Shown here: in pieces, positions 31,495-42,112 of the stretch | Layout of the letters: the number at the start of each line of letters is the position of its first letter | Numbering within the stretch: position 1 is the stretch's first letter | Origin: Burkholderiales bacterium | Lineage (GTDB): Bacteria > Pseudomonadota > Gammaproteobacteria > Burkholderiales > CAIKXV01 | Direction of reading: 5' to 3' | Assembly: GCA_014379045.1 (NCBI GenBank) | Contig: JACMMK010000321.1 | Span: 1 to 42,112, forward strand | DNA: 42,112 bases | Position numbers and translations under genes: made by a program | Notes under the pieces: model-generated | The model's database searches: none | Told to the model about the DNA's origin: nothing | The model's input: only the letters and a program-made list of their open reading frames with translations

Positions 31495-32484
31495 CTACTC
31501 GAGCTTGATCCCGGTCTCCTTGATCAGTCGGGCGAGACGCTTGACGTCTTCGGCCATCAATTGGCCGAGTTGCTCGGGGGTGCTCGTTTCAATATCGACG
31601 CCCTGGCTCGAGAGCTTCTCCCTGATCTCCGGGGAATCGAGAATCTTGTTGAGCTCGGCATTCAAGCGCACGATGATCGGGCGCGGCGTGCCTGCCGGCG
31701 CGACGAACCCGAACCACGACTGGTAGTTGAAACCCGGTACCACCTCCCCGAGCGCAGGAATATCGGGCGCCGCACCGCTGCGCTTGGTGCCACTGACGCC
31801 GATCGCCTTGATCTTGCCCGCCTTCAGCTGCGGCAGCCCCGCCAGCAGCGGCAGCACGGCCACGGGCACTTCGCCGCCGATCAACGCCGGCAACGTCGCC
31901 CCCGCACCCTTGTAGGGGACATGGTTCAACTTCACCTTGGCCATCACCTGGAACAGTTCAGCGGCGAGGTGATTCGGCCCACCGTATCCCGACGACCCGT
32001 AGTCGATCGTGCCCGGCTTCGCGCGTGCAAGCGCGAGAAACTCTTTCGGCGTGCTCGCAGGAAAGCTCGGGTTGGCCGCGAGCAGCGTCATCGAAGCGCC
32101 GATCAGGCCGATCGGTGCGAATGCCTTGACCACATCCCATGAGTATTTGTTGATGGCGCCGGCGATCGACACCACCGGCTGAGCGAGATAGATCGTATGC
32201 CCGTCGGGATTCGCCTTCGCGGCGATCTCCATGCTGACCATGCCGCCGGCGCCGGGGCGTCCGTCGATCACTACGCGCTCGTTAAGGCGCTCACCGAGTC
32301 GCTCGCCGAGCACTCGTGCGATGACGTCGGACACGCCGCCCGGGAGAAAACCCGTGATCAGGCGCAGCGGACGGTCGGGGTACTTCTGAGACTGCGCCAG
32401 CGCCGGGGTCGAGACTGCCGCGGCAAGCAGCAACGCAACCGCGCCGAGAAGCGTGGAGCGGCGAAGAAAACAATGATCGATCAT
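31495..32484 (-). CDS. Bug/TctC-family substrate-binding protein
   Basis: Signal peptide STLLGAVALLLAAAVSTPALA, then YPDRPLRLITGFLPGGVSD...DGRPGAGGMV. Confidence 0.9.
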   Translation of the reverse strand: MIDHCFLRRSTLLGAVALLLAAAVSTPALAQSQKYPDRPLRLITGFLPGGVSDVIARVLGERLGERLNERVVIDGRPGAGGMVSMEIAAKANPDGHTIYLAQPVVSIAGAINKYSWDVVKAFAPIGLIGASMTLLAANPSFPASTPKEFLALARAKPGTIDYGSSGYGGPNHLAAELFQVMAKVKLNHVPYKGAGATLPALIGGEVPVAVLPLLAGLPQLKAGKIKAIGVSGTKRSGAAPDIPALGEVVPGFNYQSWFGFVAPAGTPRPIIVRLNAELNKILDSPEIREKLSSQGVDIETSTPEQLGQLMAEDVKRLARLIKETGIKLE

Positions 32485-33489: not shown

Positions 33490-34485
33490 TTAGTCGACGC
33501 GGGCGCCGGTCAGCGCAATCAGCTTCCCGTACTTCTCGAAATCGGCCTTGAGGCGTGCACCGAACTCCTCCGGCGTACCGCCCCACGGATCGAGCGCCTG
33601 CCCCGACAGGGTCAGCGCAACGTCGGGCACCTTCAGCGCGCGGTTGACCTCGGTGTTGAGCCGGTCGACAACGGTACGCGGCGTCGCAGCGGGCGCGAGC
33701 AGGCCGATCCACGGGCTGAGCTCGTAGCCGGGCACGCCCGCCTCGGCGATCGTCGGCACCTCCGGCAACGTCGGCGAACGACGCGCCGACGCGACGCCCA
33801 GCGCGCGCAGACGCCCCGCCCTGATATGCGGGATCACCGAGGCGATCGTCGCGAGCGAGGCCTGCGTTTCACCCCCGAGCAACCCCACCACCTGGGGCCC
33901 ACCGCCCTTGTACGGGACGTGCACCAGCCGGGTGCCGGTGGTCGACGCGAGCAACGCCATCGACAGATGCGGAATGCTGCCGTTGCCCGCGGTCGAATAC
34001 ATCAGCTGTTCAGGGCGGCTGCGCACCAGCGCGATGAACTCCTTGACGCTCTTTACCGGCAGCGAGGGATGCACGACCAGTACCGCGGTCTGCGCCGTCA
34101 ACAGCGCGACCGGTGCGAAATCGCGCAGCGTCTCGTACGGCAGACTGCGGTACAGGTGCGCGTTCGCGACGTGCGTGACCGACTGCACCAGCAGCGTGTA
34201 ACCGTCGGGCAACGACTTGGCGACGTAGTCGGTACCGATGGTGCCGCCGGCACCGCCGCGATTGTCGATGATGAAGGTCTGCCCCGTCGCTTCACCGACC
34301 TTCTGCATCACGGTGCGTCCGGCGATGTCGTTGGCACCCCCGGGCGGCCAGGGGATCACGACGCGCACCGGCTTCGCCGGGTAGCCTTGGGCGTAGGTGA
34401 TGCCGTTGAGCATCCAGGGCAGCGCCGCACTCACGATCCCAGCCAGGATCTGCAGACACCTGCTCGTCGAGTCGTTCCAAGTCAT
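33490..34485 (-). CDS. Bug/TctC-family substrate-binding protein
   Basis: Signal peptide (CLQILAGIVSAALPWMLNGITYA), then YPAKPVRVVIPWPPGGAND...DNRGGAGGTIG. The 672-aa track ORF is an off-frame extension. Confidence 0.9.
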   Translation of the reverse strand: MTWNDSTSRCLQILAGIVSAALPWMLNGITYAQGYPAKPVRVVIPWPPGGANDIAGRTVMQKVGEATGQTFIIDNRGGAGGTIGTDYVAKSLPDGYTLLVQSVTHVANAHLYRSLPYETLRDFAPVALLTAQTAVLVVHPSLPVKSVKEFIALVRSRPEQLMYSTAGNGSIPHLSMALLASTTGTRLVHVPYKGGGPQVVGLLGGETQASLATIASVIPHIRAGRLRALGVASARRSPTLPEVPTIAEAGVPGYELSPWIGLLAPAATPRTVVDRLNTEVNRALKVPDVALTLSGQALDPWGGTPEEFGARLKADFEKYGKLIALTGARVD

Positions 34486-34505: not shown

Positions 34506-35447
34506 TTATTTGCGCAGGCCGAGTCCAGTCGCGGTCGACAATGCGATCTCGAACTCTGCGGCGAGCGCCTGATGGAACGCGTGCGGACCCAGGTAGGCCG
34601 TGGCAGCACCCATGGCTTCGATGCGCGAGACTAACGCAGGGTCGGTGGTCGCGGCGCGAACTGCAGAATCCCAGGTGTCGACGATCGCCGCAGGCAAGCC
34701 GGGGGGACCGACGATACCCGTCCAACCCAGAAGATCGAAACTCGGGAAACCCGCCTCGGCCGCGGTTGGGATCTGCGGCCACGCATTCACACGCACCGTG
34801 CCGCTGAGTGCGAGCGCGCGCAGGCGCCCGTCCGCAAGTAACGCCCGCATCTCGGCCAGATACTGGCCGGCAAAGTCGGTACGCCCGTCGATCACTGCAT
34901 CGAGTATTGCAGCACCGCCGTGGAAGGTCAGCCGTTGCAATCGCGCGAGGTCGATGCCGGCGGAATCGAGCAGTCGTGCGAGCGCGAGGATCGACGCACC
35001 CCCGGTGCCGGAGGTGCCGATGCGGTAACTTTCGGGCGCGCTGCGCACCTGTTCGAACAATGCGCCGAGCGAATGCCACTCGGCTTCGCCGCGCACGACG
35101 AAGGCAAGCGCGCTTGCGCTGACCCGGGCGACGAACGTCGGCGCGTCCCATCGATACGGCAATGCACTGTCGATGGCCGGATTCTGGGTCGCCTGCCCGG
35201 TCGCGCTCACCATCATCGTGTTGCCGTCGGGCGCCGCCCCCAATATCTCGAGCGTGCCGGTCGTGCCGCCGGCACCGGCGACGTTGCGTACCGCGACCGG
35301 GCGGTGCCACGCGTGCTGCAGATGGTCGGCGAGTACGCGCGCGGTGAGGTCGGTCACGCCGTCGGGGGGGAACGGGACGATCAGGTCGATCGGGCGCTGG
35401 TCGGTTCCCGCATCGCTGATGTGCATAGGCATGGTGGCGGCAGTCAA
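34506..35447 (-). CDS. Bug/TctC-family paralog lacking any signal peptide (possibly 5'-truncated or decaying)
   Basis: The family core begins at residue about 18 (RPIDLIVPFPPDGVTD...RNVAGAGGT). An in-frame TAA lies 2 codons upstream of the TTG start, so no N-terminal extension is possible. Alternative ATG starts at 35432 and 35426. Confidence 0.7.
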   Translation of the reverse strand: MTAATMPMHISDAGTDQRPIDLIVPFPPDGVTDLTARVLADHLQHAWHRPVAVRNVAGAGGTTGTLEILGAAPDGNTMMVSATGQATQNPAIDSALPYRWDAPTFVARVSASALAFVVRGEAEWHSLGALFEQVRSAPESYRIGTSGTGGASILALARLLDSAGIDLARLQRLTFHGGAAILDAVIDGRTDFAGQYLAEMRALLADGRLRALALSGTVRVNAWPQIPTAAEAGFPSFDLLGWTGIVGPPGLPAAIVDTWDSAVRAATTDPALVSRIEAMGAATAYLGPHAFHQALAAEFEIALSTATGLGLRK

Positions 35448-35600: not shown

Positions 35601-38600
35601 TTACAGCCCTTTCAACACCTCAGGCGTGAATGGATTACGACCCGCCTTGAGATCGGCTATCCACTCTTTACGCTGAGCTTTTTCGCGTTCGAACCTTGAA
35701 CCTGGATCGTTCATGAAAGCTTCGAAGTCCCGGATCGCATCGGCCCGTCGTCCGGTCAATGCGCGTGCCAGGCCACGACTGTCGACATACATCGCACGGC
35801 CGTCCGAAAGCTTGACTGCGCGTTCGCACGCGCCGTCGACGACCGCAGCGGCATAGCCGAAGCGACTGCTGAACCAGCAAAGGTCGTTCCACGTGTCGGC
35901 GTCGACCCGTTTGGGATTGATCGTGAAGACCTTGTTGTACAGCTCGATGGCTTCCCCGTACTTGCGCTCATCGAAGTACTTCCTTGCTTCCGCCGCTTCC
36001 AGCGCCCCTCTGCATTCGCCGCCGCTGATCTGAAATCGCAGGCATTCCTCGGTGCTGAATGCGCGGGTCACGCGCGCCCGCGCGATGTTCACAAGATCGG
36101 CATCGGTCTGCGGATGAGCTCGCACGGTCCTGTCTGCGCCCGCGGTAAGAACCACTTTCTGCGTGGGATGGACTGCTACATCCTGCACGTTACCGTTATG
36201 GCCCTTCAGTGCCCGTTCCTCCTTGCCACTCTTGAGGTCCCAGAGACGCGCCGTTCGATCGTCGCTATGAGTGGACAGATAGCTGTTCTTGCCGATCGTG
36301 ACGAACGCAACACCTCTGACCGATGCGCTGTGACCGACCATCCCGACCAAGTCCTTACCACTTTGCACGTCCCAGATCCTGGCGGTCCGGTCGTCACTGC
36401 CGGTCGCCAGACGTGCACCGTCGGCACTGAAGGCCACGGCGGTGACTGAATCCCTGTGCCCGACGAGCAAACGCATCTGCCTGCCATCGGCCGCGTCCCA
36501 CAATCTCGCCGTGTCATCCCAACTGCCCGTTGCCACGAACCTGCCGTCGGCGCTGAATTCGACGCTCAGCACAGCCCCCTCATGGCCAACCAGCAACAGC
36601 GGCTCCCTGCCCCCGTCCACATCCGAAATCTGCACCGTGTGGTTGTCCATGGCTACGGCGACTCGTTTTCCGTCACGACTGAACGCGATCGCGTTGATCT
36701 TGCTGATGTGAGGAGGAAGTTCGCGTCTGGGCTTTACGGCGTCGTCTACGCTCCAGACCTTGACGGTATTGCCACCCGCACTGGCGAGAACCTTCCCGTC
36801 TGCACTGAAGGCAACTGTTGCCACTTGCGGGTGCGCAAACCTTCTCAACTCGACGCCCTTGAACGCGTCCCAGATCACGGCCCACTCACCGCTCGCTGTC
36901 GCGACGCGTGAAACGTCCGGGCTGAACTTGGCCGCGGTCACCGTGGCGATGGCGGCGCTTCCGAAGTTCGCCATTGGCGCTTTGCCGCCGATCGCCCACA
37001 ATTTCGCGGTGCGATCCGCACTGCCGGTGACCAGATGCCTGCCGTCACCGCTGAAAGCGACGCCGTTGATGGGGCCTTGATGGGCCGTGAACGTGTTCAA
37101 TTCCTTGCCGGTGTCCGCATCCCATACCCGTGCCGTGTTATCGACGCTTCCTGAGGCGATGCGAGTACCGGATGCGTCGAATGCAACCGTGCGTACCGCA
37201 TTCGTATGCCCACGAAGAATGGCCGCGTCCTTGAGAGTCGACGCTTCCTTGCTCGCGCCCGGATCGCGCATCGCCTCCGTCCCCGGCTTCCTGTCCCAGA
37301 TCGCTTCCTTGCCCGTTTTCGTATCCCAGATCCTTACCATGCGGTCTTCGCCTGCCGTGGCGAGCTTCGTACCGTTAGGGTTGAAAGCGACTGCGGTGAC
37401 GACGCCGCTGTGGCCGCTCAGGGTTATCAGCTCTTTGCCGCTGTCGAGATCCCACAGCTTGGCAGTGCCATCGTCGCTCGCAGTGGCGAGGCGGCCGCTT
37501 TCCCGGCTGAGCGCGACCGCGCGGACCCGGCCGTTGTGACCGCGGAAGGTTTGGATCTCCTTGCCGGTGCCGACTTCCCAAAGTTTTGCAGTCCGGTCGT
37601 CACTGGCCGTCGCCAGCCGCGTTCCATCTTGCGTGAAGGCGACGCTATTGATGGTGTCCCGATGACCGGCAAACTTGCGCACCTCGGTACCGGTCGTCGC
37701 GTCCCACAATCTTGCGGTGTCGTCGTAGCTACCGCTCGCGATATACCGCCCATCTTCACTGAAGGCGACCCCCAGAACGCGGGCGCCATGGCCGCGCAGA
37801 GTAGCCACTTCTTTCCCGGTCGAGGTATCCCAGACCTTCACGGTGTTGTCTTCGCCTGCGGTCGCGAGTCGGTGCCTCGCGGAATCGAGGGCAACACCGA
37901 AGACGCTGCCTGTGTGCCCCGCGCCAGTGCTCGGCGTGAGCTGCACGCGGGTGGATTGCACCGCTTCGCCGAGGAGTGTCATCGCTTCCGGTGTCTTGGA
38001 TAACGAGAGCGCTTCCAAGGCAAGCAGCAATGTCAGGTCAAGATTGTCCTGCCCCACCTTCTCGCCCGCGTAGGTCAGCTTGAAGGATGAGGTCTGGTTG
38101 CGTGCCTCGACGGCCGCTGTCGCAGCGTCACGCGCGTTTCTCAGGGCGCCTTCAAGTCGTAGGTTTGTTTTCTTTTCCTTTTCCCTGGCATCGTTTGCCG
38201 CATTCGCGTTTGCGTTTGCCGTAGCCGCGAGATAGTCGGCCCTGACTGCATGGGCTTGCGCGGTGACCTCGTTCTGCATCGCCTTCTCGGCGTTTTTCCT
38301 CGCCTCTTCGGCCTTTTCCTCCGCCAGAGTCGCACTCTGGCTTGCCTGCACCTGCATACGGTCGGCGGTCTGCTTTAGGTTGAACATGGACACCGAGGCG
38401 ACCGTCGCGGCCAGGCCCACCCCGACGGCGAAGATCGTCACCATGCGACTACGCCTGGCATTGCTCTCGAGCGTGGCCGCGCGAATTTTTGCAGTTTCCG
38501 CCTCGGCCTCGAGCTGGCGGCGTTCGAGCTCTTTCGTACGAAGCTCCTCCGCCTGCGCCCGCTGCACTCGCGCGTCCTCAGCGGCGATCGAGGCTTCCAT

Positions 38601-40208
38601 AAAGCTCATCAGTTCGGCAGGCGCGACGCGGTAGCGCTCGCTGTCGTGCTTCAACTGAAGCAGCTGAAAGAGCCGCTCGCAGCTCGCGCGATCGCGCAAC
38701 GCTTCGTTCAGCGCCGACTCGCGCATACGTGCGAGCGGCTCGCCTTGTACGAGTCGGCGCTCGGAACGATCGCTCTGCAGCCAGCTCTGCGTGCCCTTGA
38801 GAAGCGTCACGAACTCTTCGAAGAGTTCCGCTTCGCGGTCGATCAGTTCCTGGAAATGTCTCCAGCCGCGGATGAAGGCTTCATGGAATACCTTGATGGT
38901 GACCTGCTCCGGGTTCTCGTCGTCCCAGAGGATGTAGTCGCACGGAGGCAGGAATCCGGCCACGAGCGGCCTGGGATCGGCTCCGCCGAGCAGGGCCGCA
39001 GCCTCCTCGCGTCTGAGCCGCTGCTGCGTATACATGCCGGTGTTCGGGTCTTTGAACGCGAGCCGCCGCAACAGCGAGTTGAAGCATTTCTTCTTTTCGC
39101 CGTCGAACCGGTCGAATATCGCTTGCGCCCAGTTTTCGAGGCACAAACGCAGCACGTTTCCCTGCGGCGGCAGCGGGGGCGCTGTTGCTTCCGATGTGGC
39201 GCTCACCGCGCGCTCGAGGTCGGCCATCGTGGCACGGTCGGGAACGTCCAGCCCCTCCGACCTCCCGCGCGCGCAAGCGGCTTCCCACAGCCGCGCGAGG
39301 AGGTGCTGCAGCAACGCCAGATGGTCAGGGTCGGAATGGATCTGCTCGACGTCGTGCTGTACCCGCGCCAACACCGCTTCGTCGAAGCCGAAGTTGGCGG
39401 GGACTTTTCGCTGGCCGGCGCCTGCCCGGGCAAGCATCCGCAGATATCGACGCGGCGGCTTCTCGATCGTTTCGTCGATTTCCGACGGGTCGAGCCGCCG
39501 CACGAGGTACGAGGCCTTGTTTATCGCGTCGGGTAGCCGAAGGAACGCCGCGCAGTCGTTCAGATGCTCGCTGCGCATCGTGATCACGAGATAGATGCGC
39601 GGGTGCGGTGAATAGTAGTGGTCCAGCACCCGCTCGACCAACGTGGTGCACTCAGGAACATCCTTGTTGCTCCAGTGGAACAGTTCCTCGAACTGGTCGA
39701 TCACGAGCATGAAGTTCGCACGTTCCGCACTCGGTCCAGCCGGCAGATCGAGCCGGTCGGCAAACGTGTTGATCAGCGTGCCGAATCCGCCGGACTTGTT
39801 GAGCGCCGCCACCGCCTCCGCCTGATAGCGAGTGCGTTCCTCGTCCGAGCTCACGCGCAGAAGGCGGACGAACTTGCGCGCCAGCCGGTCGATCGGCGTT
39901 TCACCTGTCCCGACAGGCGCGTCACGCTTAGCCATATTGGTGCCGGGCGTGGCCAGGATCGGCACCCAGAAATCGCCGGCTTCGGCGATACGATAGCCGC
40001 GCAATTCGGGGATGACGCCGGCGCGCACGAGCGACGACTTTCCGGAGCCGGAACCTCCGAGCAGCGCCACGAAGCGCGTCGCGCAAAGCCGAAGGATGAC
40101 TTCCTCGACCTGCGAACTGCGCCCGAAGAAGATCGAGGATTCCCTATCCTGGAACGGGCGCAGTCCCGGGTAGGGCGAACGAAATTCCAGAGTGCCGGAT
40201 TCAGCCAT
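35601..40208 (-). CDS. 1535-aa STAND-type P-loop NTPase (nSTAND-like N-terminus) - coiled coil/TM/coiled coil - 14 WD40 repeats - TPR-like C-terminal domain
   Basis: N-terminal SPYPGLRPFQDRESSIFFGR, Walker A LLGGSGSGKSS (K57 codon 40038-40040) and Walker B FMLVIDQFEELF (D171 codon 39696-39698). Hydrophobic 21-mer at aa 589-611. 14 GH...WD units. GAGAGAG RBS 6 nt before ATG 40208. Confidence 0.9.
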   Translation of the reverse strand: MAESGTLEFRSPYPGLRPFQDRESSIFFGRSSQVEEVILRLCATRFVALLGGSGSGKSSLVRAGVIPELRGYRIAEAGDFWVPILATPGTNMAKRDAPVGTGETPIDRLARKFVRLLRVSSDEERTRYQAEAVAALNKSGGFGTLINTFADRLDLPAGPSAERANFMLVIDQFEELFHWSNKDVPECTTLVERVLDHYYSPHPRIYLVITMRSEHLNDCAAFLRLPDAINKASYLVRRLDPSEIDETIEKPPRRYLRMLARAGAGQRKVPANFGFDEAVLARVQHDVEQIHSDPDHLALLQHLLARLWEAACARGRSEGLDVPDRATMADLERAVSATSEATAPPLPPQGNVLRLCLENWAQAIFDRFDGEKKKCFNSLLRRLAFKDPNTGMYTQQRLRREEAAALLGGADPRPLVAGFLPPCDYILWDDENPEQVTIKVFHEAFIRGWRHFQELIDREAELFEEFVTLLKGTQSWLQSDRSERRLVQGEPLARMRESALNEALRDRASCERLFQLLQLKHDSERYRVAPAELMSFMEASIAAEDARVQRAQAEELRTKELERRQLEAEAETAKIRAATLESNARRSRMVTIFAVGVGLAATVASVSMFNLKQTADRMQVQASQSATLAEEKAEEARKNAEKAMQNEVTAQAHAVRADYLAATANANANAANDAREKEKKTNLRLEGALRNARDAATAAVEARNQTSSFKLTYAGEKVGQDNLDLTLLLALEALSLSKTPEAMTLLGEAVQSTRVQLTPSTGAGHTGSVFGVALDSARHRLATAGEDNTVKVWDTSTGKEVATLRGHGARVLGVAFSEDGRYIASGSYDDTARLWDATTGTEVRKFAGHRDTINSVAFTQDGTRLATASDDRTAKLWEVGTGKEIQTFRGHNGRVRAVALSRESGRLATASDDGTAKLWDLDSGKELITLSGHSGVVTAVAFNPNGTKLATAGEDRMVRIWDTKTGKEAIWDRKPGTEAMRDPGASKEASTLKDAAILRGHTNAVRTVAFDASGTRIASGSVDNTARVWDADTGKELNTFTAHQGPINGVAFSGDGRHLVTGSADRTAKLWAIGGKAPMANFGSAAIATVTAAKFSPDVSRVATASGEWAVIWDAFKGVELRRFAHPQVATVAFSADGKVLASAGGNTVKVWSVDDAVKPRRELPPHISKINAIAFSRDGKRVAVAMDNHTVQISDVDGGREPLLLVGHEGAVLSVEFSADGRFVATGSWDDTARLWDAADGRQMRLLVGHRDSVTAVAFSADGARLATGSDDRTARIWDVQSGKDLVGMVGHSASVRGVAFVTIGKNSYLSTHSDDRTARLWDLKSGKEERALKGHNGNVQDVAVHPTQKVVLTAGADRTVRAHPQTDADLVNIARARVTRAFSTEECLRFQISGGECRGALEAAEARKYFDERKYGEAIELYNKVFTINPKRVDADTWNDLCWFSSRFGYAAAVVDGACERAVKLSDGRAMYVDSRGLARALTGRRADAIRDFEAFMNDPGSRFEREKAQRKEWIADLKAGRNPFTPEVLKGL
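35604..36113 (-). other. TPR-like helical C-terminal domain of the STAND protein (aa 1366-1535)
   Basis: KYFDERKYGEAIELYNKVFTINPK, SRGLARALTGRRADAIRDFEAFM, and a tail KEWIADLKAGRNPFTPEVLKGL. Contains the only 4 Cys residues C-terminal to the TM helix. Confidence 0.55.
36114..37925 (-). repeat. 14 tandem WD40 repeats (two predicted 7-bladed propellers), aa 762-1365
   Basis: Units of about 42-43 aa of the form GH..V..VAFS.DG..LAT.S.D.TA.LWD..(T/S)GKE. Blades 8-10 are degenerate. A roughly 25-aa insert sits after blade 5 (37224-37300). Confidence 0.85.
38376..38444 (-). other. Predicted single transmembrane helix inside the STAND protein (aa 589-611)
   Basis: NARRSR-MVTIFAVGVGLAATVASVSMF-NLKQ. 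Flanked on both sides by long E/A/R/K-rich helical (coiled-coil-like) segments. Confidence 0.6.
39219..40181 (-). other. STAND NTPase module of the 1535-aa protein (aa ~10-330)
   Basis: Walker A/B as above. The PY.GL..F...D...FFGR motif immediately before the P-loop is the signature I recall for the 'novel STAND' NTPases that are usually fused to WD40/TPR arrays. The extent of the module is approximate. Confidence 0.6.
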
Positions 40209-40239
40209 GGCGCGCTCTCTCAGCCGCAGGGCCCGCAGG

Positions 40240-41403
40240 TCAGGCAGCGGTGCGTTTCTCCAGGATGTCTTTCAGGAAGCTCCTGAGCTTCCTGGTCTCG
40301 CTCGGGTCTTCCTGCATCACCGGCTCGCAATTGTCGAATCCGACGACGCTCCATCCCAGCGCCTCAGCGGGCTTGCCCGGCTTCTGAGGGGGGCGCAGAC
40401 AGGCGACGAGTCCCGGGGCGATCACGTCGGTGGGCGGCAGCAGCTCTTCGATCTTGTCGATGTTTTTTCGCAACGCGTGCGAGTCTTTCTGGCCCCAGAG
40501 CAGAACGACCCCGTCGGCGTCACTCAGCTGGTTGTGGCGCGGATCGATTTCGTCGACCGGCAGACCGCGCACACGCATTCGCAGCGGGTGATCGTTCTGC
40601 GCTTCGGTATTCACATCCTTCCAGAGCTGCGCGATGCGTCGGCCGAGAGGCTTCCATTCGTCGAGCTCGAGCGGATTGCTTTCGATGTAGATCTGCACCG
40701 GACTCGACGGTTCGGGCGCCCGGTCGGCAACGGGCGCAGCTGCCGCATCGACCGGCTGCTCTCTAACGATCGGCGCGTTTCTGGCGACATTGGCGTTGTC
40801 GCACAGGAGTTCCGTCCCCTTGACTGCCGGCGGCATCTTCGCATCGAGGCTCTCTCGAATACTGCGCACGAGGTCGTCGGCGAGGGTCCCCACGAGGTCC
40901 TGGAACCTGGCCGTGAGCGCCCCCGTGTCGATGTACGGACGTATCGCCTTGTTCTGCTCGTTGTAACACGGCACCCAGACCTGATCCGGCAGCGCCAGGC
41001 GCTGCCATGCGGGGTTCAACTGGACTCTGGCACCGACGTCGTTTCGCAGCGCGAGTATGTACAGGCGGCGCTGCATGCCATCGGCGCCGAAATGGCTCTT
41101 GAAAAACTCGAGCTCTTCCACGCACCACTCGGAGCCGAGATAGTTGTCGCCCGCTACGACGATCAGCGCGAACGACTGCTGGATCCGGTTGCGAAGCTCG
41201 CTGCTCAGTCCGCCCCTGATCGGACCGTTCTCCTGACTCAGGTGCGATGGCTTGCCACCACCCGGCGCCCGCGCGAGGTCACCTTGCAGCTTCTTCTGGA
41301 GCTCGTTCCTGAAGTAGGTGACCCAGCTGAAGTTCGCGGGATCGTCGGCATGCGCGTAACTGATGAATGTGCTGTAGACACAATCGGCGTACCTTGTTGT
41401 CAT
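40240..41403 (-). CDS. TIR-domain protein with uncharacterised C-terminal domain
   Basis: ATG 41403 (GAGG RBS) gives MTTRYADCVYSTFISYAHADD (TIR beta-A). ALIVVAGDNYLGSEWCVEELEFF is the S.WC..EL motif, with putative catalytic Glu97 at codon 41113-41115. Stop lies 31 nt before the STAND gene start. Confidence 0.85.
   Translation of the reverse strand: MTTRYADCVYSTFISYAHADDPANFSWVTYFRNELQKKLQGDLARAPGGGKPSHLSQENGPIRGGLSSELRNRIQQSFALIVVAGDNYLGSEWCVEELEFFKSHFGADGMQRRLYILALRNDVGARVQLNPAWQRLALPDQVWVPCYNEQNKAIRPYIDTGALTARFQDLVGTLADDLVRSIRESLDAKMPPAVKGTELLCDNANVARNAPIVREQPVDAAAAPVADRAPEPSSPVQIYIESNPLELDEWKPLGRRIAQLWKDVNTEAQNDHPLRMRVRGLPVDEIDPRHNQLSDADGVVLLWGQKDSHALRKNIDKIEELLPPTDVIAPGLVACLRPPQKPGKPAEALGWSVVGFDNCEPVMQEDPSETRKLRSFLKDILEKRTAA
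40984..41379 (-). other. TIR domain (aa ~9-140)
   Basis: FISYAH strand, alpha-A WVTYFRNELQKKL, and the conserved SEWCVEEL segment. Boundaries are approximate. Confidence 0.75.
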
Positions 41404-41520
41404 GGCCTCACATGCTCCGTGATCACCGTCAGGTCGCACCGGCTAGTTGCGGCAGACGCGCACACTGACTTGCCTTCGCCTAGCGAGCAGATAGCATACG
41501 CCGGCATTGCCATTCGCTGC

Positions 41521-41560
41521 TAGTCCTTTCGGACTAACCGCGGTCGCGAGCGACCCGCGG
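41521..41560 (-). terminator. Tandem hairpins between the upstream ORF and the TIR gene (possible transcript boundary)
   Basis: ccgcggtcg-cgag-cgac(c)cgcgg (9 bp with 1 bulge, 41538-41560) and tagtcc-tttc-ggacta (6 bp, 41521-41536). No clear U-tract. Confidence 0.3.
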
Positions 41561-41585
41561 CTCGTCGCGAAGCACTACTCGTCGA

Positions 41586-42041
41586 TCAGGTATTTCTCGC
41601 TCCCGTTCCCAGCAGGCGAATGCCCGGAATCGCGCAGAACTCGACCAACCACGGCATCGGCGTTTCGATCGGCACGTGCACGCGATCACTTTGACCCCTG
41701 CGGGCCGCGCCTTGATCGAAGAGGCAATTCCACTCTGGAGCGCGGCGCAGGACGAAACGCGGCTGCGTCTCGCACCTGATCCTTCCTGGCGAGAAACTCC
41801 GCCGCACCCTGGACGGTCTTGGTGAAGAGTCGCTCACGGTATCCAGGTCCCGCAGATGAACACGATCGGAGAGTATCCAATCGTGCTCATTCCGATGATC
41901 GGCGTACCGCTCACCGGAGCCATTCACATCATGGCGATCGACAGCCTCTGGCGGCGCTGGCGCGCAGAGCGCAGGCCGCAGAACTTCAGACAGGCGACTG
42001 CGACTGGATAACGACCGCCAATACCGCTTGGTCGGCCGCAT
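41586..42041 (-). CDS. Hypothetical ORF, no recognisable family (possibly spurious or a gene remnant)
   Basis: Only an open frame of 151 aa. The C-terminal half has GC-rich third positions, while the N-terminal half is Arg/Ser-rich low complexity. No motif recognised in any of the three minus frames. Confidence 0.25.
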   Translation of the reverse strand: MRPTKRYWRSLSSRSRLSEVLRPALCAPAPPEAVDRHDVNGSGERYADHRNEHDWILSDRVHLRDLDTVSDSSPRPSRVRRSFSPGRIRCETQPRFVLRRAPEWNCLFDQGAARRGQSDRVHVPIETPMPWLVEFCAIPGIRLLGTGARNT

Positions 42042-42112
42042 CGGTTGTGGTTACTCTTGACGCCGATGGACTGGACCCGATCGATCGATGCCTACTGTGA
42101 GCGCCTCGACCC

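What the first reader, a model, noticed from the sequence alone, without database searches (positions are those of the whole stretch)
35601..41403. Two-gene TIR + STAND-NTPase/WD40 module: candidate conflict (anti-phage / programmed-death) system
Two co-directional genes, separated by 31 nt, sit in a lower-GC block among housekeeping and catabolic genes.

Gene 1 (387 aa) has a clear TIR domain: the FISYAHADD strand and an SEWCVEEL motif with a candidate catalytic Glu97.

Gene 2 (1535 aa) has, in order:
- the SPYPGLRPFQDRESSIFFGR motif
- Walker A GGSGSGKS and Walker B VIDQFEELF, a STAND-type switch
- a helical middle region
- 14 WD40 repeats
- a TPR-like tail

Sensor repeats plus a STAND switch plus a TIR effector is the logic of Apaf-1/NLR proteins and of bacterial Avs/NLR-like defence proteins. 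Bacterial TIR domains act as NADases or signal generators in Thoeris, CBASS and related systems. Here the effector is a separate polypeptide. I see no shared adaptor domain at the NTPase N-terminus, since the P-loop motif starts about 10 aa in. I cannot tell from sequence alone whether this exact pairing is already catalogued.
Basis: partly seen in the sequence, partly recalled or inferred. Interest (0 to 1): 0.9.

Follow-up and report, generated by a model that had tools for sequence, protein, structure and literature searches.

The report
Membrane-anchored STAND receptor with TIR partner
Two adjacent genes encode a TIR (NAD-cleaving type) enzyme and a large membrane-spanning ATPase switch whose WD40 sensor probably faces outside the cell; the pair is real and conserved, but it looks more like an outside-in death or signalling receptor, linked in most relatives to a secreted modified peptide, than a classic anti-phage system.

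Summary
On the minus strand, a 387-aa TIR protein (40240-41403) lies 31 nt upstream of a 1535-aa nSTAND1 NTPase with 14 WD40 blades (35601-40208).

- Gene 2 has one strongly hydrophobic helix (res 589-612) after an Arg cluster. This feature is near-universal in the family, so the NTPase is predicted cytoplasmic and the WD40 and tail extracytoplasmic.
- Gene 1 has a second, rare, invariant C-terminal flavodoxin-like domain, which is a candidate docking module.
- The pair belongs to a Burkholderiales-restricted family. In 60 of 61 loci the TIR gene is followed directly by nSTAND1. About 60% of loci also encode a Sec-exported W-x-N/K-repeat peptide, and most of those also encode an OscB/GrrM-type cyclophane radical SAM enzyme. 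The window's small clade lacks both and carries WD40 in place of the usual sensor domain.

The flanks are metabolic genes, not a defence island. PADLOC finds no system.

Best reading: an outside-in STAND receptor that activates a TIR NADase. A conflict or death function is plausible, but an anti-phage role is not specifically supported. It is a new variant of a known kind.

The parts
40240..41403 (-). Gene 1: 387-aa TIR + C-terminal-domain protein (the effector partner)
   Evidence: ORF. It is identical to P0001. It has 107 homologues with both ends conserved. The AF2 model has pLDDT 87.6.
40834..41379 (-). TIR domain (res ~9-190)
   Evidence: Pfam TIR and TIR_2 hits are borderline. Foldseek matches RUN1 TIR (E 8.5e-6, TMt 0.62), RPP1, SPARTA and AbTir (TMt 0.78). 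The family profile aligns to the plant TIR motif YAxSxWCLxEL.
41113..41115 (-). Codon of Glu97, the candidate catalytic residue
   Evidence: E97 is invariant in 107 homologues. It aligns with the E of WCLDEL in RUN1, RPV1, SNC1 and RPS4. The codon was read.
40243..40698 (-). Family-specific C-terminal domain (res 236-387), flavodoxin/receiver-like fold; candidate docking domain
   Evidence: Invariant residues include YIESN, DADGVVLLWG-K and PPQ. The AF2 model has pLDDT 80.7 and only weak, generic flavodoxin/receiver-like PDB matches. Pfam finds nothing. Only 135 clusters in 1.84 billion representatives carry it, always at the C-terminus, and some have CHAT and/or extra TIR domains upstream.
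40209..40239 (-). 31-nt intergenic spacer (operon junction)
   Evidence: In relatives the two genes overlap or lie 16 nt apart or less.
35601..40208 (-). Gene 2: 1535-aa single-pass membrane nSTAND1 NTPase with WD40 sensor
38760..40175 (-). nSTAND1 NTPase module (res 12-483), including Walker A (40035-40058, K57) and Walker B (39678-39704)
   Evidence: Pfam PF20703 at E 7.9e-54, 184 bits vs cutoff 27.1.
38373..38444 (-). Predicted transmembrane helix (res 589-612), preceded by RRSR
   Evidence: Kyte-Doolittle 19-mer mean reaches 1.97. An equivalent helix after an R/K cluster is present in 54 of 57 full-length partners at KD >= 1.6, and two more score 1.44-1.59. Only the distant L078 lacks it.
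37923..38372 (-). Ala/Glu/Lys-rich helical stalk after the TM helix (res 613-762)
   Evidence: Sequence. Pfam gives no match above its cutoff. The coiled-coil character is inferred from composition only.
36084..37922 (-). 14 WD40 blades (res 763-1375), enough for two 7-bladed propellers
   Evidence: Pfam WD40 at E 6.6e-127. A self-derived repeat HMM finds 14 units.
35604..36083 (-). C-terminal tail (res 1376-1535), weakly TPR-like, with four conserved Cys
   Evidence: TPR_2 scores 24.8 bits, below the 27 cutoff. Cys1389, 1399, 1444 and 1461 are all conserved in the L001 orthologue at about 54% identity.

Best explanation
The region is a two-gene operon for an outside-in STAND receptor and its TIR effector.

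Gene 2 is a single-pass inner-membrane protein. The nSTAND1 NTPase (Walker A K57, Walker B D171) is in the cytoplasm. One TM helix (res 589-612) crosses the membrane. A helical stalk, a double WD40 propeller and a Cys-containing TPR-like tail lie in the periplasm.

Gene 1 is a cytoplasmic protein. It has a plant-type TIR domain (catalytic Glu97) and a rare C-terminal flavodoxin-like domain, which I infer docks it onto the NTPase.

Proposed mechanism (inferred):
1. An extracytoplasmic ligand binds the WD40/tail sensor.
2. This drives NTP-dependent oligomerisation of the cytoplasmic NTPase modules.
3. Oligomerisation clusters the TIR protein and switches on NAD+ cleavage.
4. NAD+ depletion, or an ADPR-derived signal, causes growth arrest or death.

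The pair belongs to a Burkholderiales family whose typical members also encode a Sec-exported W-x-N/K-repeat peptide and an OscB/GrrM-type cyclophane-forming radical SAM enzyme. In those members the likely ligand is the secreted cyclophane peptide. The window's small clade has lost, or never had, the peptide genes and has exchanged the usual sensor domain for WD40 repeats, so its ligand is unknown.

Shown: domain identities, motif conservation, synteny, the hydrophobic helix, the peptide signal sequences and purifying selection.
Inferred: topology, docking, NADase activity, ligand and physiological outcome.
For: - Architecture: nSTAND1 and WD40; 14 blades; a single hydrophobic helix after RRSR, conserved in 54-56 of 57 partners despite low sequence identity within the helix.
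- TIR fold and catalytic motif. E97 is invariant.
- Tight coupling: in 60 of 61 loci the TIR gene is followed directly by nSTAND1, with gene overlaps or gaps of 31 nt or less.
- Purifying selection: dN/dS 0.22 for gene 1 and 0.19 for gene 2.
- C-terminal domain of gene 1: rare, always C-terminal, and also found on CHAT-TIR and CHAT effector proteins next to MoxR/VMAP conflict-system genes. This fits an effector-docking role.
- Extracytoplasmic sensor: 4 near-invariant Cys in the family-typical C-terminal domain, and 4 conserved Cys in the window's tail.
- Relatives: the radical SAM gene passes the curated cutoff of GrrM/OscB TIGR04261 (328 bits vs 310). W-x-N/K repeat precursors occur in about 35 loci, and all of the 22 examined have Sec-type signal peptides. 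OscB chemistry on W-x-N motifs is described in PMC11002830.
- Sensor swap: the window's NTPase is 42-48% identical to the partner lineage, while the WD40 and tail occur only in its own clade.
Against: - Topology rests on hydropathy and the positive-inside rule only. No dedicated TM predictor was run and there are no experimental data.
- Classical GH-WD-type WD40 arrays are usually cytoplasmic in bacteria. Exporting about 920 residues behind an internal signal-anchor is demanding.
- Conserved Cys also occur in the cytoplasmic NTPase part, so the Cys argument is weak.
- No enzymatic evidence exists for this TIR. Its Pfam scores are borderline.
- The window itself has no peptide or radical SAM gene, so the peptide-ligand idea is an extrapolation from relatives.
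- 19 of 46 well-flanked loci lack both the peptide and the radical SAM gene.
Confidence: 0.5

Rival explanations
1. Classical cytoplasmic anti-phage abortive-infection system. The WD40/TPR region would recognise a phage protein inside the cell, the STAND would oligomerise, and the TIR would deplete NAD+, as in Avs or bacterial NLR-like systems.
For: - The sensor-switch-effector domain logic fits.
- nSTAND1 is used in predicted counter-invader systems (PMC8195603).
- TIR and CHAT effectors carry the same C-terminal domain in MoxR/VMAP conflict loci.
- A distant locus (L078) has a separate TIR gene plus nSTAND1-WD40 without a TM helix.
- A phage protein family of unknown function (phrog_923) matches the NTPase region.
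Against: - A conserved single TM helix separates the NTPase from the sensor in essentially all close relatives.
- PADLOC finds no Avs, NLR or other system.
- Metabolic flanks and a conserved chromosomal position argue against a defence island.
- The family has a narrow taxonomic range.
- Most relatives are linked in an operon to a secreted peptide.
Confidence: 0.2
2. Accessory proteins of RiPP biosynthesis. The TIR protein would use NAD+ to tailor the cyclophane peptide (for example by ADP-ribosylation), and the STAND protein would regulate or export it. The window's copy would be an orphan left after loss of the peptide and radical SAM genes.
For: - 27 of 46 well-flanked relatives carry the precursor, and 24 of them also carry an OscB/GrrM-type radical SAM gene in the same operon.
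- An NAD+-dependent ADP-ribosyltransferase is a proven tailoring enzyme of a triceptide (MicD; PMC12912966).
- NCBIfam records a TIR-like protein (FxsC) in another cyclophane RiPP system.
Against: - The TIR-nSTAND1 pair is the invariant core (60 of 61 loci), whereas the peptide and radical SAM genes are dispensable (19 of 46 loci lack both).
- The window and its orthologue keep both genes intact under purifying selection without any peptide gene nearby.
- MicD is an ART fold, not a TIR.
- The same C-terminal domain is fused to CHAT proteases in MoxR/VMAP conflict loci.
- A 1,000-1,500-aa STAND NTPase is not a known RiPP tailoring or export component (my own knowledge).
Confidence: 0.1
3. The TIR acts as a non-enzymatic assembly scaffold or adaptor, as in animal TLR/MyD88 signalling. 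The output would then go through an unidentified downstream partner rather than NAD+ cleavage.
For: - Foldseek also matches MyD88, TRIF and TLR TIR assemblies.
- Pfam scores for the enzymatic TIR models are borderline.
Against: - The invariant Glu in the WCLxEL-type motif is typical of NADase TIRs.
- No third conserved gene accompanies the pair across loci.
Confidence: 0.1
4. Chance adjacency of unrelated genes, or a decaying remnant.
For: None beyond the absence of recognisable promoter or terminator signals.
Against: - In 60 of 61 loci the TIR gene is followed directly by nSTAND1.
- dN/dS is about 0.2 for both genes.
- All catalytic motifs are intact.
Confidence: 0.02

Closest known systems
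nSTAND1-centred predicted counter-invader systems (Kaur, Burroughs, Iyer & Aravind; eLife 2020 PMC7159879 and eLife 2021 PMC8195603)
   Same: Both have the same NTPase clade (Pfam PF20703), a repeat or lectin-type C-terminal sensor, and a TIR among the effectors. Both follow the logic of NTP-dependent oligomerisation driving a death-type effector.
   Different: In the described systems, effectors are fused to the NTPase or coupled through a shared EAD or bacterial Death-like domain on both proteins. Here the NTPase N-terminus has no adaptor. The TIR protein instead carries a distinct, rare C-terminal flavodoxin-like domain. A TM helix separates the NTPase from the sensor, and most relatives sit in a RiPP operon.
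Avs / bacterial NLR-like antiviral STAND proteins
   Same: STAND switch plus repeat sensor plus a death-type effector.
   Different: The NTPase clade is different and PADLOC finds no match. Avs proteins are single cytosolic polypeptides with N-terminal effectors that sense phage proteins in the cytoplasm (my own knowledge). Here the effector is a separate protein and the sensor is predicted to be extracytoplasmic.
FxSxx-COOH (Fxs) gene neighbourhood of Actinobacteria (NCBIfam: FxsB cyclophane radical SAM maturase, TIR-like protein FxsC)
   Same: Both combine a cyclophane-forming radical SAM enzyme and precursor peptide with a TIR-like protein. From memory, and not tested here, the Fxs neighbourhood also includes a large STAND/TPR protein. 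The relatives of the window's pair show the same combination.
   Different: FxsC_Nterm matches at only 24.5 bits against a cutoff of 130. The relatives' radical SAM enzyme is the GrrM/OscB type, not FxsB. The window itself has no peptide or radical SAM gene.
Triceptide (3-residue cyclophane) RiPP clusters of the OscB/GrrM type
   Same: The relatives encode an OscB/GrrM-family radical SAM enzyme above its curated cutoff, and W-x-N/K repeat precursors that match the known OscB substrate motif.
   Different: The papers I searched and read on triceptides did not mention a TIR or STAND partner. The window's locus lacks the RiPP genes altogether.
Apaf-1 and plant TNL immune receptors
   Same: Apaf-1 has a WD40 double propeller as the sensor of a STAND switch. 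Plant TNLs have a plant-type TIR catalytic motif that is activated by STAND oligomerisation.
   Different: The NTPase clade is nSTAND1, not an AP-ATPase/NB-ARC. The effector is a separate polypeptide. The protein is membrane-spanning.

Membership tests
Pfam nSTAND1 (PF20703) | Profile match above the gathering score, with intact Walker A and B | tested here: met
   184.2 bits vs cutoff 27.1, res 12-483. GGSGSGKS and VIDQFEE are present.
TIR domain superfamily | TIR fold | tested here: met
   The AF2 model has pLDDT 87.6. Foldseek matches plant, SPARTA, AbTir, TLR and MyD88 TIRs at probability 1.00. Pfam TIR scores 22.9 vs cutoff 21.3, while TIR_2 scores 26.1, below its cutoff of 28.
NADase-type TIR | Catalytic Glu in the conserved helix motif | tested here: met
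   E97 is invariant in 107 homologues and aligns with the E of WCLDEL in RUN1, RPV1, SNC1 and RPS4. Entry 7s2z, the RUN1 E100A mutant bound to NAD, appears in the Foldseek hit list.
NADase-type TIR | Measured NAD+ hydrolase or cyclase activity | not testable with these tools
   This needs an enzyme assay.
EAD / Death-like-domain-coupled STAND conflict systems (Kaur et al.) | The same adaptor domain on the NTPase N-terminus and on the effector protein | tested here: not met
   The nSTAND1 profile starts at residue 12 of gene 2, so there is no room for an N-terminal adaptor. Gene 1's extra domain is C-terminal and has no counterpart in gene 2.
Avs / PADLOC-catalogued STAND defence systems | Match to a system-specific HMM | tested here: not met
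   For gene 2, PADLOC gives only a 22-residue P-loop hit (mad3, E 0.004). For gene 1 it gives only 34-37-residue ThsB fragments. DefenseFinder was not available.
Thoeris | ThsB TIR together with ThsA (SIR2 or Macro/TM plus SLOG) | tested here: not met
   ThsB hits are weak and partial (E 1e-4). No ThsA-like gene is present; the partner is nSTAND1.
FxSxx-COOH system (FxsC) | FxsC_Nterm equivalog score, and the presence of FxsA and FxsB | tested here: not met
   24.5 bits vs cutoff 130. There is no radical SAM gene or precursor in the 42-kb window.
OscB/GrrM triceptide gene cluster | 3-CyFE radical SAM enzyme plus a W-x-N-type precursor in the locus | tested here: not met
   Both are absent from the window. 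In relatives the feature is met: TIGR04261 scores 328 bits vs 310, and precursors occur in about 35 loci.
Defence-island residency | Neighbouring known defence or mobile-element genes | tested here: not met
   The flanks are three TctC receptors, a deacetylase, an aminotransferase, pyrophosphatase, CobW and an aldolase. There are no tRNA genes. Relatives have a conserved nadA/MFS...TPP-enzyme context.
Single-pass (N-in, C-out) membrane receptor | One TM helix with a positive-inside flank; experimentally confirmed topology | tested here: inconclusive
   Hydropathy reaches 1.97 over res 589-612 after RRSR, and the helix is conserved in 54-56 of 57 partners. The topology itself was not measured.

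The most novel reading that the evidence does not exclude
This family is a transmembrane NLR-like receptor system for secreted cyclophane peptides. Triceptides of the W-x-N/K type are made in the cytoplasm and exported by Sec. The periplasmic domain of a membrane-spanning nSTAND1 NTPase reads them, and the NTPase then switches on a cytoplasmic TIR NADase. This would form a peptide-gated death, dormancy or kin-recognition circuit. The window's WD40 version would be a rewired receptor for a different extracellular cue. If true, this would give triceptide RiPPs a first biological role and would be a bacterial example of outside-in STAND-TIR signalling.
Probability: 0.3. Interest if true: 0.85.

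Novelty: new variant of a known kind. Interest (0 to 1): 0.6.

Why it matters
STAND-plus-TIR immunity is known from plants and from cytosolic bacterial defence proteins. A membrane-spanning STAND whose sensor faces outward, paired with a separate TIR through a previously undescribed docking-type domain, would extend that logic to outside-in signalling.

The family-wide link to Sec-exported W-x-N/K cyclophane peptides is the more valuable lead. The papers I read on triceptides cover their chemistry and do not assign them a function. This operon architecture offers a concrete, testable one: ligand or trigger of a TIR death/dormancy switch.

Two cultured carriers make experiments feasible: Pseudaquabacterium inlustre DXS22W (L058) and Piscinibacter koreensis ID0723 (L069).

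For the window itself the practical message is more modest. The pair is real and probably functional. It should not be annotated as an anti-phage system on present evidence.

Tried and rejected
- PADLOC on both proteins gave no system-level hit.
- PHROGs gave nothing for the TIR protein and one unknown-function family for the NTPase.
- GC content as evidence of horizontal transfer: the difference is only about 3 points and lies within the window's own variation.
- Upstream 700 nt of gene 1:
  - No frame shows a coding signal and there is no radical SAM remnant.
  - A stretch I first read as MarR-like has no Pfam support, nor does the 151-aa ORF at 41586-42041, so the idea was dropped.
  - No conservation with the orthologous upstream region.
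- Promoter and terminator scans were at or below shuffle expectation.
- Identity of the gene 1 C-terminal domain:
  - No Pfam family.
  - PDB fold search gives only generic flavodoxin/receiver-like matches with TM <= 0.55.
  - So no named family could be assigned.
- FxsC membership was rejected on score.
- MicD (PNAS 2026) was checked as a possible TIR homologue; it is an ART fold.
- L068 looked like an exception to the synteny. It is a CHAT-TIR-C-terminal-domain protein in what appears to be a MoxR/VMAP-type locus, judged by its architecture and the amidohydrolase neighbour it shares with L081.
- A literature search on FxsA/B/C returned only unrelated papers.

Full report
**1. The observation**

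The window is a complete 42,112-bp MAG contig. The gene 1 protein is in the database as P0001, [quoted passage not shown], with a longest contig of 42,112 bp.

On the minus strand, ORF 40240-41403 encodes 387 aa and ORF 35601-40208 encodes 1535 aa. They are separated by 31 nt.
- FISYAHADD at 13-21
- SEWCVEEL at 91-98 (E97)
- SPYPGLRPFQDRESSIFFGR at 11-30
- GGSGSGKS at 51-58 (K57)
- VIDQFEELF at 169-177

Pfam assigns gene 2 to nSTAND1 (PF20703, E 8e-54, res 12-483) plus WD40 (E 7e-127). A repeat HMM built from the protein itself finds 14 blades between res 763 and 1375. The tail gives only sub-threshold TPR hits.

The "lower-GC block" is weak. The module is 62.8% GC against 65.7% for the rest, and several other 1-kb bins are as low.

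**2. Gene 1 is a real TIR with a second domain**

Sequence profiles are borderline: Pfam TIR scores 22.9 vs 21.3, and TIR_2 scores 26.1 vs 28. An AlphaFold2 model built on 107 homologues has pLDDT 87.6. Its N-terminal half matches plant NLR TIRs (RUN1, RPP1, RPS4, L6), SPARTA TIR-APAZ, AbTir, TLRs and MyD88 at Foldseek probability 1.00.

The family profile aligns its Y-x-x-S-x-W-C-L-x-E-L block directly onto the YA-x-S-x-WCLDEL block of RUN1, RPV1, SNC1 and RPS4. E97 is invariant across all 107 homologues. From my own knowledge of the literature, that Glu is the catalytic residue of plant TIR NADases. The RUN1 E100A-NAD structure (7s2z) appears in the hit list.

Residues ~236-387 form a second, equally conserved domain, with YIESN, DADGVVLLWG-K and PPQ invariant. 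Modelled alone (pLDDT 80.7), it is a flavodoxin/receiver-like α/β sandwich with only generic PDB matches (TM <= 0.55) and no Pfam family.

An exhaustive profile search of 1.84 billion representative proteins finds this domain in only 135 clusters, always at the C-terminus. A few carriers are long proteins: CHAT-TIR-CTD, TIR-TIR-CTD, or CHAT...CTD (CTD = this C-terminal domain). One of them sits beside a MoxR-type AAA ATPase and a VMAP-C protein (L081). That is another NTPase-regulated conflict system of the kind predicted by Kaur et al. 2020.

**3. Gene 2 is predicted to span the membrane**

Between the NTPase and the WD40 array there is one strongly hydrophobic stretch, res 589-612, with a Kyte-Doolittle 19-mer mean up to 1.97. 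RRSR precedes it, and Ala/Glu/Lys-rich helical sequence flanks it on both sides.

In the partner proteins of related loci, an equivalent helix after an Arg/Lys cluster is present in 54 of 57 full-length sequences at KD >= 1.6. Two more score 1.44-1.59. Only the very distant L078 lacks it.

The NTPase and the signal-less TIR protein must be cytoplasmic. The positive-inside rule therefore places the C-terminal region outside the cytoplasm. This is an inference.

Two observations fit that placement without proving it. The four Cys of the window's tail are all conserved in the orthologue at about 54% identity. The family-typical C-terminal domain has four near-invariant Cys.

**4. Synteny and distribution**

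Gene 1 has about 100 relatives. A scan of species-representative genomes returned 74 loci, nearly all from Burkholderiales of the Rubrivivax, Rhizobacter and Piscinibacter type.

Where at least 1.5 kb of downstream DNA is available, 60 of 61 loci have an nSTAND1 gene starting within 500 nt on the same strand. The only exception, L068, is a CHAT-TIR-CTD protein in what appears to be a MoxR/VMAP-type locus, judged by its architecture and the amidohydrolase neighbour it shares with L081.

The reverse search with the NTPase module returns about 1,850 hits. The top 120 are all ~1,040-1,115-aa "hypothetical" nSTAND1 proteins.

The WD40 array and tail occur only in the window's own small clade. Its orthologue L001/L006 is 59-71% identical by domain; over the full proteins, gene 1 is 61% identical. 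All other close partners carry a different, unannotated C-terminal domain of about 430 aa.

The window's NTPase is 42-48% identical to these partners. It is only 28% identical to a second TM-nSTAND1-WD40 paralogue found upstream of the TIR gene in L058 and L065. So the WD40 array here is a sensor swap within the partner lineage.

Both genes are under purifying selection relative to L001: dN/dS is 0.22 and 0.19, with dS near saturation.

**5. Genomic context**

The window's flanks encode three TctC receptors, a polysaccharide deacetylase, an aminotransferase, inorganic pyrophosphatase, CobW and an aldolase. There are no tRNA genes. The 700 nt upstream of gene 1 show no coding signal.

In Rubrivivax-type genomes the module occupies a conserved chromosomal position: nadB/nadA/MFS upstream and a TPP enzyme downstream. 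This is not a defence-island pattern. PADLOC detects no known system.

**6. The unexpected link to a RiPP**

In many relatives the pair lies in one operon with a radical SAM/SPASM enzyme. That enzyme passes NCBIfam's curated cutoff for the cyclophane-forming maturase GrrM/OscB (TIGR04261, 328 bits vs 310).

The operon also holds a small ORF ending in (N/K)-W-x repeats, for example NWTNWPKWSKWSNWANK and WFNWGNWNNWNNWSNWGNWGNWPNHR. OscB crosslinks Trp-C7 to the Cβ of Asn/Asp in W-x-N motifs (PMC11002830), so these ORFs are typical triceptide precursors.

All 22 precursors I examined have a Sec-type signal peptide followed by a conserved helix.

Three gene orders occur:
- peptide, radical SAM, TIR, STAND
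- peptide, TIR, STAND
- TIR, STAND, peptide, radical SAM

Among 46 loci with sufficient flanks, 24 have both the peptide and the radical SAM gene, 3 have the peptide only, and 19 have neither. The window's clade is in the last group.

NCBIfam's weak FxsC_Nterm hit, together with its FxsB model, shows that a TIR-like protein is also recorded next to a different cyclophane RiPP system in Actinobacteria.

I found no paper describing a TIR or STAND partner for OscB/GrrM-type clusters. Related precedents do exist:
- a radical SAM enzyme plus a "peptide-effector" in one conflict system (PMC7159879)
- predicted periplasmic sensor domains for a few STAND proteins (PMC10907252)
- an ART-fold ADP-ribosyltransferase that tailors a triceptide (PMC12912966)

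**7. Interpretation**

The invariant core is the TIR-CTD protein plus the TM-nSTAND1 protein. The sensor domain and the peptide/radical SAM cassette are variable.

The most economical model is an outside-in STAND receptor. An extracytoplasmic cue is sensed by the C-terminal domain. In most relatives that cue is plausibly the exported cyclophane peptide. In the window it is an unknown ligand of the WD40/tail region. The cytoplasmic NTPase then oligomerises, and the TIR protein is recruited through its C-terminal domain and cleaves NAD+.

I put about 0.5 on this model. I put about 0.2 on a conventional cytosolic anti-phage reading and about 0.1 on a RiPP-tailoring role. Another 0.1 goes to a non-enzymatic scaffold TIR, and chance adjacency or decay is essentially excluded.

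**8. Verdict**

This is a new variant of a known kind, namely nSTAND1-effector systems. Its distinguishing features are the TM topology, a new C-terminal domain on the effector, and a family-level association with secreted triceptides. Interest is moderate to high (0.6), mainly because of the RiPP-STAND-TIR connection, which the window's own copy lacks.

Noticed in passing
L058 3941-7879; L065 182-4066 (also L066 70-1530): A second, distantly related (28% identity) TM-containing nSTAND1-WD40 gene lies directly upstream of the TIR gene, in the same operon as the peptide-linked system. Two different membrane STAND sensors may therefore share one TIR effector.
   Followed up: partly
L081 5036-12134; L068 23-4570: The gene 1 C-terminal domain also ends giant CHAT(-TIR) proteins. 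In L081 such a protein lies next to a MoxR-type AAA_5 ATPase and a VMAP-C protein. A similar amidohydrolase gene follows in both loci.
   Followed up: partly
L020, L021, L025, L030, L032, L039, L053: 4-16 nt upstream of the precursor-peptide start codons: A conserved CCTAGCAT motif sits immediately upstream of the predicted start of the W-x-N/K precursor ORFs. It could be a -10-like element or another regulatory site. It was not seen upstream of the window's gene 1.
   Followed up: no
Relatives of P0060 and Rubrivivax-type loci: The NAD biosynthesis genes nadA and nadB recur a few kb upstream of the TIR-nSTAND1 module. This may be lineage synteny only, but it is notable next to an NAD-consuming enzyme.
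   Followed up: no
window 31495-32484, 33490-34473, 34506-35447 (all minus strand): Three paralogous TctC/Bug-family periplasmic receptor genes lie directly downstream of the module. L001 and L002 also carry TctC genes nearby. This expansion is typical of Burkholderiales.
   Followed up: no
window 41404-42112: About 700 nt between gene 1 and the contig end have no frame with a coding-type GC3 signal. The longest ORF there (41586-42041, minus strand, 151 aa) has no Pfam hit. The region is not conserved with the orthologous locus.
   Followed up: yes
L078 7779-12783: A distant Pseudomonadota locus has a separate TIR gene overlapping an nSTAND1-WD40 gene that lacks the TM helix. A cytosolic version of the two-gene arrangement therefore exists outside Burkholderiales.
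   Followed up: partly
window 38289-40208 (gene 2 res 12-219): The NTPase region matches phage protein family phrog_923 (unknown function, E 1.4e-13), so some phages encode related STAND-like NTPases.
   Followed up: no
L001 4660-7749: A 1029-aa AAA_16-TPR-GerE (LuxR-type STAND regulator) gene lies about 2 kb upstream of the orthologous TIR-nSTAND1 pair. There is no counterpart in the window.
   Followed up: no
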